Assembly (NCBI RefSeq): GCF_054482525.1
Contig: NZ_CM137006.1
Length of the DNA: 64,000 nt
Strand: one strand, 5' to 3'
Both the position numbers and the translations under genes were made by a program. How positions within the stretch are numbered: position 1 is the first letter of the stretch; every line of letters starts with the position of its first letter. The notes below the pieces were generated by a model. It searched no databases. It saw only the letters and a list, made by a program, of their open reading frames with translations, and was not told where the DNA came from. Below, piece by piece: positions 40,142-40,613 of this stretch.

Positions 40142-40613
40142 TGCATCTCCAGAAATCATGAAGGAAACGTCGTTCATATCGGTGGTGTTAATTACAGATA
40201 TCACGCCCTTTAATTTGGAAATAAAACTTTAATCACCAATATTGAAAATGTCACACGCAGATAAATCCAACTTTCAATATTGTTAAGTCCCTCACCAATA
40301 TTGAAAACATGGCGTAGCAAAAAGAAATTTTCAATATTGCTTTATGGATCACCAATATTGAAAGTCAGATGCTATTTTTTTACTCACAATCAAACTCATC
40401 ACATTGATAAACAATGAATATTTACACAAAGACGCCCTGTTTTTACCCGATAAAAAACTGTGACTAACATCACAGAACGCAGCCAATTGAATACCCATTA
40501 TGAGTTAGCCATTAACGCGTCCACGAGGTTAATAATAATTATATTAAATGTTAACAAAAATAAAACAAACGGGAACGCAAAATAAATATTCGTTTTCACA
40601 GTGGAATTAACTC
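40142..40613. promoter_or_regulatory. Divergent fix / cai control region with repeated TCACCAATATTGAAA / TTTCAATATTG motifs (candidate CaiF and CRP sites)
   Basis: Five copies of the CAATATTG palindrome core at about 40237, 40275, 40297, 40332 and 40354; AT-rich 470-bp divergent intergenic region. Confidence 0.6.

What the first reader, a model, noticed from the sequence alone, without database searches (positions are those of the whole stretch)
40230..40370. Periodic CAATATTG palindromes in the divergent fix/cai control region
The motif TCACCAATATTGAAA occurs three times (about 40232, 40292, 40349) with partial inverted copies TTTCAATATTG at about 40272 and 40329, giving a roughly 57-60 bp periodicity. 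This region is the known shared control region of the caiTABCDE and fixABCX operons, activated by CaiF and CRP, so these are probably the activator half-sites. It is worth checking because an active-looking IS element now sits about 50 bp beyond the caiF stop.
Basis: partly seen in the sequence, partly recalled or inferred. Interest (0 to 1): 0.3.

Follow-up and report, generated by a model that had tools for sequence, protein, structure and literature searches.

The report
Known CaiF activator sites, cai–fix spacer
The repeated CAATATTG motifs are the already-described binding sites of the carnitine regulator CaiF between the divergent fix and cai operons of E. coli, unchanged from strain K-12, so the finding is real but ordinary.

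Summary
TCACCAATATTGAAA occurs exactly at 40233, 40292 and 40349. TTTCAATATTG occurs at 40272 and 40329. Chance would give far fewer.

The natural units are two operators of the form TTTCAATATTG-N13-CAATATTGAAA (40272-40306 and 40329-40363), plus one solitary half-site (40233-40247). The operator sequence matches the published CaiF F1/F2 consensus letter for letter. All five half-sites, and their number and spacing, are identical to K-12. The array is present in 5388 of 5426 complete E. coli genomes. CaiF is intact here and identical to the K-12 protein. The IS1397 element 48 bp past its stop has no visible bearing on the array. Verdict: already known.

Comparison across 43 species adds four details:
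- The solitary half-site is kept 59-61 bp from the first operator in 42 of 43 species, inside the predicted fix core promoter.
- The "TCA" inside the nominal N13 spacer is invariant in 80 of 80 distinct sites.
- The number of complete operators varies: one in some genera, two in Escherichia, Citrobacter and Salmonella, three in Proteus.
- A 97-bp stretch between the array and the cai -10 is 34% divergent between E. coli strains whose flanks differ by 0-2%.

Neither the role of the solitary half-site nor the cause of the divergent stretch is shown.

The parts
40233..40247 (+). Solitary right-type half-site TCAC+CAATATTGAAA. It lies 59 bp from the equivalent half of F1, at about -14 to -28 of the predicted fix promoter.
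   Evidence: Exact match. Identical in K-12. Present with at most 2 mismatches in 42 of 43 species that have a full site, at 59-61 bp. Falls in the 17-bp spacer of the predicted promoter.
40272..40306 (.). Complete CaiF operator on the fix side (F1 type): TTTCAATATTG-N13-CAATATTGAAA.
   Evidence: Zero mismatches to the published consensus (PMC12083890). Half-sites identical to K-12. Conserved across genera.
40329..40363 (.). Complete CaiF operator on the cai side (F2 type), 57 bp from the first.
   Evidence: Zero mismatches. Spacing. Conserved in Escherichia, Citrobacter, Salmonella, Phytobacter and Pseudocitrobacter.
40281..40296 (+). CRP-like 16-mer TGTTAAGTCCCTCACC, concentric with F1.
   Evidence: 2 mismatches to TGTGA-N6-TCACA, which is not above chance on its own: 21 such matches in the window against 24.9 expected. 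TCA at site positions 21-23 is invariant in 80 of 80 distinct sites.
40338..40353 (+). Weaker CRP-like 16-mer TGCTTTATGGATCACC, concentric with F2. K-12 has TGTTT...; the SNP is at 40340.
   Evidence: Read from the sequence. SNP. Four mismatches to the CRP core, so it is CRP-like in the right half only.
40459..40474 (+). Perfect CRP site TGTGACTAACATCACA, centred 41.5 bp upstream of the predicted cai start.
   Evidence: Zero mismatches. Half-sites conserved across genera at a fixed distance from the conserved -10 block.
40226..40254 (-). Predicted fix core promoter GTGACA-17 bp-TAAAGT, with an inferred start near 40219.
   Evidence: Promoter scan. This is a consensus match only; the start site was not measured here.
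40496..40501 (+). Predicted cai -10 hexamer CATTAT, with an inferred start near 40508.
   Evidence: Read from the sequence. It lies in the block GAATACCCATTATGAGTTA, conserved across genera apart from a few substitutions.
39371..40141 (-). fixA, first gene of fixABCX.
   Evidence: ORF list. Annotation of the identical region in strain 118UI.
40614..42128 (+). caiT, first gene of caiTABCDE.
49307..49702 (-). caiF, the activator that recognises the repeats. It is intact at 131 aa.
   Evidence: ORF and translation. Pfam CaiF_GrlA. Same protein accession WP_000333125.1 in PCN033 (100% identical DNA) and in a K-12-type genome.
47827..49258 (-). IS1397 (IS3 family, 1432 bp) inserted in a REP element between the convergent caiE and caiF genes.
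   Evidence: Terminal repeats TGAACTG..., flanking CCA duplication and REP halves were read from the sequence. REP targeting of IS1397 is stated in PMC1525189.
40390..40486 (.). Hypervariable stretch of the cai promoter upstream region, about -118 to -22. Not part of the repeat array.
   Evidence: 33 differences in 97 bp against K-12, with 0-2.3% in most flanking segments. Allele comparison.

Best explanation
The repeats are the operator array of CaiF, the carnitine-pathway activator, in the spacer between the divergently transcribed fixABCX and caiTABCDE operons of an E. coli strain.

Shown:
- There are two complete operators, 40272-40306 and 40329-40363. Each is made of two 11-bp inverted half-sites separated by 13 bp, exactly as published for K-12 sites F1 and F2.
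- There is a fifth, solitary half-site at 40233-40247.
- A perfect CRP site lies at 40459-40474.
- caiF is intact.

From the literature: CaiF is made under anaerobiosis without glucose, through FNR and CRP. It is activated by crotonobetainyl-CoA, binds F1 and F2, and together with CRP turns on both operons.

Inferred from predicted promoters:
- The fix start is near 40219 and the cai start near 40508.
- That puts F1 at about -70 of fix and F2 at about -127 of fix and -162 of cai. CRP then sits at -41.5 of cai.
- The solitary half-site lies in the spacer of the fix core promoter.

The 57-59 bp period most likely arose by tandem duplication of one operator unit. Related genera carry one, two or three complete operators, and all but one of the 43 species also carry the solitary half-site.
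For: The two operators match the published consensus exactly (PMC12083890 section 3.2; PMC3680233). The motif counts are far above chance. All half-sites and spacings are identical to a K-12-type genome. The array is present at 95% identity or more in 5388 of 5426 E. coli genomes. The location between fixA and caiT is confirmed.

CaiF is intact, belongs to Pfam CaiF_GrlA and is the same accession as in K-12.

In 80 distinct sites from about 43 species the half-site cores are 96-100% conserved, apart from site position 9 at 86%. Copy number is 1, 2 or 3, with a 55-59 bp period. The two E. coli units share 73% identity over 51 nt, including non-site positions.

The perfect CRP site and the -10 block are conserved across genera. 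A promoter-like site is predicted on the - strand at 40254-40226.

FNR activation of caiF is reported in PMC3688515. Crotonobetainyl-CoA as co-activator is reported in PMC12083890.
Against: No binding or expression data exist for this strain. The original footprinting papers were not available. The footprint positions and the CRP sites I recall at -69.5 and -126.5 of fix therefore rest on secondary citations and on my memory. Both transcription starts are predictions. The promoter scan found no more sites than shuffled sequence gives (3 against 2.6). The inner CRP-like 16-mers are not significant by sequence alone. The readable sources describe only two CaiF sites, so the role of the fifth half-site is unproven.
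Confidence: 0.9

Rival explanations
1. The solitary half-site (40233-40247) is not a CaiF contact. It would be conserved because it forms part of the fix core promoter, meaning the spacer, the region upstream of -10 and the start region. Its resemblance to a half-site would then be inherited from an ancestral duplicated unit.
For: It lies in the 17-bp spacer of the predicted promoter. The adjacent block AAATAAAAC, around the inferred start, is also conserved. The readable sources name only F1 and F2 (PMC12083890, PMC3680233). Its would-be left partner matches the half-site at only 5-6 of 11 positions.
Against: Promoter spacers are not normally conserved base for base. Here the 15-mer is as conserved as the proven half-sites (28 distinct sequences, most positions 96-100%), while the predicted -35 hexamer is not conserved outside the Escherichia/Citrobacter group. 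Its register to F1 is fixed at 59-61 bp in 42 of 43 species.
Confidence: 0.4
2. The TCAC prefix that turns the 11-mer into the reader's 15-mer is the right half of CRP sites nested inside F1 and F2. It would not be part of what CaiF reads. CRP and CaiF would then occupy concentric sites.
For: Site positions 10-25 read TG[T/C][T/C]W-N6-TCAMC, which is CRP-like and centred on the operator. With the predicted fix start at 40219 the two 16-mers centre at -69.5 and -126.5. Those are the positions I recall for CRP sites 2 and 3 in Buchet et al. 1999 (memory, not verified here). Their 57-bp difference equals the F1-F2 spacing.
Against: The key G of the left CRP half (site position 13) is present in 0 of 80 sites. 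TCA is invariant even in F2- and F3-type sites with very poor left halves. It is also invariant in the solitary half-site, which has no CRP left half at all. The F1 16-mer is no better than chance matches in the window.
Confidence: 0.4
3. The repeats are functionless leftovers of a tandem duplication, or copies of a dispersed repeat such as a REP or miniature transposable element.
For: The two 57-bp units are 73% identical over 51 nt, which is consistent with origin by duplication.
Against: The half-site cores are invariant or nearly so from Escherichia to Proteus, while the sequence between them is free to vary. There is one place per genome in E. coli and no other exact copy in 64 kb. Published CaiF binding applies to exactly this sequence.
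Confidence: 0.02
4. The inverted repeats act as an RNA or DNA secondary structure, such as a leader element or cruciform, rather than as protein sites.
For: The 43-nt arms at 40265-40307 and 40328-40370 are 74% complementary.
Against: The array lies between the two predicted divergent start sites, so neither operon transcribes it. No Rfam family matches; the only hit is a chance miRNA match at E = 0.38. The complementarity simply follows from each operator being an inverted repeat.
Confidence: 0.02

Closest known systems
CaiF sites F1 and F2 of the E. coli K-12 cai-fix control region (Buchet et al. 1998/1999, as cited in PMC12083890 and PMC3680233)
   Same: The sequence, number, spacing and genomic position are the same. 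All five half-sites are identical to K-12. The CaiF protein is the same accession.
   Different: Three SNPs fall in the array outside the half-sites, at 40289, 40310 and 40340. A different allele occupies the 97-bp stretch downstream of F2. IS1397 lies 48 bp past the caiF stop.
GrlA at the LEE1 (ler) P1 promoter of EHEC/EPEC
   Same: GrlA is the only characterised homologue of CaiF (PMC9979310). It binds the ler promoter, and it has been proposed to act through the -35/-10 spacer in a MerR-like way (PMC4730234, citing Islam et al. 2011). The solitary CaiF half-site also lies in a predicted core-promoter spacer.
   Different: The predicted fix spacer is 17 bp, not the 18 bp reported for LEE1 P1. 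No CaiF binding to the solitary half-site has been shown. CaiF additionally uses upstream inverted-repeat operators.
Composite activator/CRP promoters such as melAB (MelR with CRP) and the CytR-CRP promoters (from general knowledge, not tested here)
   Same: A weak CRP-like site is nested among sites of a pathway-specific regulator. A divergent or upstream array works together with a promoter-proximal CRP site.
   Different: Here the CRP-like element lies inside the 13-bp gap of the specific regulator's own operator. Whether CRP occupies it could not be tested.

Membership tests
CaiF operator (F1/F2 type) | Sequence TTTCAATATTG-N13-CAATATTGAAA | tested here: met
   Two matches with zero mismatches, at 40272-40306 and 40329-40363, against 0.00 expected. 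Consensus taken from PMC12083890.
CaiF operator (F1/F2 type) | Located in the divergent spacer between fixA and caiT | tested here: met
   fixA at 39371-40141 (-) and caiT at 40614-42128 (+).
CaiF operator (F1/F2 type) | Identity with the K-12 sequence on which binding was shown | tested here: met
   The alignment with a K-12-type genome shows all half-sites and spacings identical.
CaiF operator (F1/F2 type) | Cognate CaiF gene present and intact | tested here: met
   A 131-aa ORF at 49307-49702 (-). Pfam CaiF_GrlA. Same accession as in K-12.
CaiF operator (F1/F2 type) | Protection or retardation by purified CaiF in this strain | not testable with these tools
   Needs a footprint, gel shift or ChIP experiment.
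CaiF operator, for the solitary half-site 40233-40247 | Paired inverted half-site 13 bp away | tested here: not met
   The position of the would-be left half has 6 mismatches in 11. It is therefore a half-site only and cannot be filed as a third complete operator.
CRP site | Match to TGTGA-N6-TCACA | tested here: met
   40459-40474 is a perfect match, and its half-sites are conserved across genera.
CRP site, for the elements nested in F1 and F2 | Match to TGTGA-N6-TCACA beyond chance | tested here: inconclusive
   The F1 inner 16-mer has 2 mismatches, and there are 21 such matches in the window against 24.9 expected. The F2 inner 16-mer has 4 mismatches. The right half TCA is invariant across species, but the key left-half G is absent in 80 of 80 sites.
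Spacer-binding activation (MerR-like, as proposed for GrlA) | [quoted passage not shown] | tested here: inconclusive
   The solitary half-site lies in the spacer of a promoter that is only predicted. The transcription start was not measured.
Spacer-binding activation (MerR-like, as proposed for GrlA) | Over-long spacer (19 bp for MerR targets, 18 bp at LEE1 P1) | tested here: not met
   The predicted spacer is 17 bp. The comparison values come from PMC4730234.
Dispersed repeat (REP/BIME or miniature transposable element) | Many copies scattered through the genome | tested here: not met
   Median of one place per E. coli genome. No other exact copy in the 64-kb window.

The most novel reading that the evidence does not exclude
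The CaiF recognition unit may be larger and less symmetric than the textbook '11 bp - N13 - 11 bp'. The right half would include an invariant TCA(C/A) prefix. A universally conserved solitary copy of that 15-mer, sitting in the spacer of the fix core promoter, would be a genuine third CaiF contact through which the activator acts directly on RNA polymerase. That would resemble what has been proposed for its homologue GrlA at LEE1 P1. The upstream complete operators, one to three depending on genus, would then serve as auxiliary or cai-directed sites.
Probability: 0.4. Interest if true: 0.35.

Novelty: already known. Interest (0 to 1): 0.15.

Why it matters
For the genome scan this is a true positive of a known kind. 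The array is intact and identical to K-12, so nothing suggests altered carnitine regulation at the operator level in this strain.

The comparative results refine a 25-year-old model in modest ways:
- The 'N13' gap contains three invariant bases.
- A fifth half-site in the fix core promoter is kept across at least ten genera.
- Operator copy number differs between genera.

These points bear on how the small CaiF/GrlA family activates transcription, and on the design of CaiF-based carnitine biosensors that use the fix promoter. The hypervariable stretch next to the array is a clean natural example of a short promoter segment that differs sharply between strains with near-identical flanks.

Tried and rejected
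- I tried to read the primary papers: Buchet 1998 (PMC107209), Buchet 1999 (by DOI), Eichler 1996 (PMC177796) and Walt & Kahn 2002 (PMC135185). None is held.
- Full-text searches for the site sequences and for the positions 69.5 / 126.5 found nothing beyond secondary citations. The CRP site 2 and 3 positions therefore remain my recollection.
- PMC8085414 mentions cai-fix only as a strain deletion.
- The Rfam scan of the spacer gave only a chance miRNA hit, so an RNA element was rejected.
- I considered whether CCAATTGAATA in the cai core promoter (40483-40493) is a degenerate sixth half-site. It was rejected because K-12 and other genera do not keep it.
- I considered an alternative fix promoter in which -35 overlaps the half-site and TTTTAT serves as -10. 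It cannot be excluded, but it does not fit the recalled site positions.
- My first FixA query was translated out of frame. It was redone correctly.
- A half-site-like 11-mer with one mismatch inside the caiF coding region (49594-49604) was judged to be chance.

Full report
**1. Observation**

The window region 40142-40613 is the spacer between fixA (39371-40141, minus strand) and caiT (40614-42128, plus strand). The 15-mer TCACCAATATTGAAA occurs exactly at 40233, 40292 and 40349. A 2-mismatch copy lies on the other strand at 40272. That is 4 matches against 0.16 expected from shuffles. TTTCAATATTG lies at 40272 and 40329. The direct spacings are 59 and 57 bp. The five exact 11-mers are the only exact copies in the 64 kb.

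**2. Anatomy**

The natural units are two 35-bp inverted repeats, TTTCAATATTG-N13-CAATATTGAAA, at 40272-40306 and 40329-40363. Both match with zero mismatches against 0.00 expected. A fifth, unpaired right-type half-site lies at 40233-40247. Its would-be left partner matches at only 5 of 11 positions. Each half-site contains the 8-bp palindrome CAATATTG. The core centres are 21 bp apart within an operator and 36-38 bp apart between neighbouring units.

**3. Identity**

[quoted passage not shown] These are PMC12083890 (section 3.2) and PMC3680233 (discussion), both citing Buchet et al. That is exactly what is here.

The activator gene caiF is intact at 49307-49702 on the minus strand. It belongs to Pfam CaiF_GrlA. 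Its only relative with a solved structure is GrlA. The DNA is 100% identical to strain PCN033, whose CaiF carries the same protein accession as a K-12-type genome.

**4. Comparison with K-12 and the species**

The alignment with a K-12-type genome shows the same number, sequence and spacing of all five half-sites. Only 3 SNPs fall in the 131-bp array, at 40289, 40310 and 40340, and all lie outside the half-sites. The array is present at 95% identity or more in 5388 of 5426 complete E. coli genomes, once per genome. Nothing about the operators is unusual in this strain.

**5. Promoters and CRP**

A perfect CRP site, TGTGACTAACATCACA, lies at 40459-40474. It sits 41.5 bp upstream of a start inferred at 40508 from the conserved block GAATACCCATTATGAGTTA, whose -10 is CATTAT at 40496-40501.

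On the other strand the scan finds GTGACA-17 bp-TAAAGT at 40254-40226, which implies a fix start near 40219. The two inferred starts are 289 bp apart.

With these starts, the 16-mers nested in the operators centre at -69.5 and -126.5 of fix. These are TGTTAAGTCCCTCACC at 40281-40296 and TGCTTTATGGATCACC at 40338-40353. The figures 289 bp, -41.5, -69.5 and -126.5 agree with what I remember from the abstracts of Buchet et al. 1998 and 1999. I could not open those papers, so this agreement is a consistency check and not a verification.

By sequence alone the inner 16-mers are not significant. There are 21 matches with 2 mismatches or fewer in the window, against 24.9 expected.

**6. Comparative evidence**

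A scan of one genome per species with CaiT returned 80 loci. fixA is divergently adjacent to caiT in most of them.

- Complete operators (3 mismatches or fewer) occur in 43 species. Eleven have one, including Pluralibacter, Yokenella, Atlantibacter, Trabulsiella and Providencia (whose second site is degenerate).
- Twenty-four have two: Escherichia, Citrobacter, Salmonella, Phytobacter, Pseudocitrobacter and Intestinirhabdus.
- All eight Proteus species have three, on a strict 59-bp period.
- Edwardsiella, Hafnia, Serratia, Shewanella and Campylobacter have none.

In 80 distinct sites most core positions are 96-100% conserved; site position 9 is 86%. Three bases of the nominal N13 gap, TCA at site positions 21-23, are invariant in 80 of 80. 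Position 24 is C or A only. The mirror positions on the left are not symmetric: the G that a CRP left half would need is never present.

The solitary 15-mer is present with 2 mismatches or fewer in 42 of 43 species. It lies 59 bp (37 species), 60 bp (4) or 61 bp (1) from the right half of the fix-proximal operator. It is as conserved as the proven half-sites, while the predicted -35 next to it is not conserved outside the Escherichia/Citrobacter group.

In one-operator species the single operator keeps the 59-61 bp register to the solitary half-site. It lies 118-135 bp from the cai CRP site (my arithmetic from the coordinates). In Escherichia and Citrobacter that distance is 120.5 bp for the second operator. 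The two E. coli units are 73% identical over 51 nt, including non-site positions.

Together this points to tandem duplication of one operator unit as the origin of the period.

**7. Mechanism**

From the literature:
- caiF is activated by FNR and CRP (PMC3688515; PMC3680233).
- CaiF needs crotonobetainyl-CoA, which is made from carnitine by CaiC and CaiD (PMC12083890).
- CaiF binds F1 and F2 and, with CRP, activates both operons.

Inferred here:
- F1 sits at a class-I-like distance from the fix promoter, about -70.
- F2 is about 162 bp from the cai start, whose proximal activator is CRP at -41.5.

Unresolved:
- Whether the invariant TCA is read by CaiF or by CRP.
- Whether the solitary half-site is a real CaiF contact inside the fix core promoter.

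The second idea has a precedent. GrlA, the only characterised homologue of CaiF, binds the ler promoter (PMC9979310). It has been proposed to act through the -35/-10 spacer in a MerR-like way (PMC4730234, citing Islam et al. 2011). However, the predicted fix spacer is 17 bp rather than over-long.

**8. The IS element**

IS1397 (IS3 family) occupies 47827-49258 and is 1432 bp long. Its terminal repeats begin TGAACTG, it is flanked by a CCA duplication, and the two halves of a REP element lie on either side. Its transposase is annotated as intact with a programmed frameshift in the identical PCN033 sequence.

IS1397 is known to insert into REP sequences (PMC1525189). Only 6 of 5426 genomes share this arrangement. 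Strain 118UI, which has an identical cai-fix spacer, keeps only about 100 bp of one IS end.

The IS lies downstream of both convergent genes and does not touch caiF or the operators. Any effect would be on the 3' ends of the transcripts. This was not tested.

**9. A side observation**

Between F2 and the cai -10, positions 40390-40486 differ from K-12 at 33 of 97 positions. The remaining segments differ by 0-2.3%, except for 2 differences in the 26 bp next to the array. One strain (2014C-4587) differs from the window by 1 base outside this stretch and 31 inside it.

The window-type allele is found in 641 of 5426 genomes, and a third allele in 11. The remaining genomes are too different for blastn to detect. 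Each Escherichia species or clade has its own version, with 25-39 pairwise differences. The CRP half-sites inside the stretch are nevertheless kept.

The stretch spans about -118 to -22 of the cai promoter. PMC3680233 places FNR sites at -90.5 and -41.5 and ArcA sites at -101 and -91 there.

Short-tract recombination anchored on the conserved flanks, or long-lived alternative alleles, could explain this. I did not resolve which.

**10. Verdict**

The finding is real, correctly located and correctly interpreted. It corresponds to an already-described regulatory element that is unchanged in this strain. Interest is low. The comparative details are modest additions that would need experiments to confirm: the invariant TCA, the conserved solitary half-site, the copy-number variation and the hypervariable neighbour.

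Noticed in passing
window 40390-40486: This 97-bp stretch of the cai promoter upstream region is 34% divergent from K-12, while nearly all the flanking sequence differs by 0-2.3%. E. coli has two deep alleles: the window type in 641 of 5426 genomes, plus a third allele in 11. Each Escherichia species has its own version. The CRP half-sites inside the stretch are kept even though 5 of the 6 bases between them differ. The cause is unexplained.
   Followed up: partly
window 47827-49258: An intact IS1397 (1432 bp) is inserted in a REP element between the convergent caiE and caiF genes, 48 bp from the caiF stop and in the same orientation as caiF. Only 6 of 5426 E. coli genomes share it. Strain 118UI keeps only about 100 bp of one IS end at the same place.
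   Followed up: yes
window 40176-40207 (fix 5' untranslated region, minus-strand transcript): The block CATATCGG[T/C]GGTGTTAA[A/T]TACAGATATCACGC is nearly invariant across Escherichia, Citrobacter and Salmonella; Phytobacter and Pseudocitrobacter carry a few changes. It lies downstream of the predicted fix start. No function was identified and no Rfam family matches.
   Followed up: no
locus L090 (E. coli SFE8, NZ_CP051219.1), equivalent to window ~40366: In this swine isolate an IS26 copy lies where the fix side should be, and similarity to the window begins only at about window 40366. The whole CaiF operator array and the fix side are therefore missing upstream of caiT, a natural deletion of the activator sites.
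   Followed up: no
and summaries (E. coli genomes): Three of about 5400 matches to the cai-fix spacer are on records labelled as plasmids. They were not inspected.
   Followed up: no
loci L028-L035, L046 (Proteus spp.), about -529 to -318 relative to caiT ATG: Proteus species carry three complete CaiF-type operators plus the solitary half-site on a strict 59-bp period, against two in Escherichia. Providencia has partly degenerate copies (CAATACTG, TTCATACTG).
   Followed up: partly
window 49594-49604: A half-site-like 11-mer, CAATATCGAAA, with one mismatch lies inside the caiF coding sequence. It is probably chance: 6 matches with 1 mismatch or fewer against 1.33 expected, and 5 of the 6 are the real sites.
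   Followed up: no
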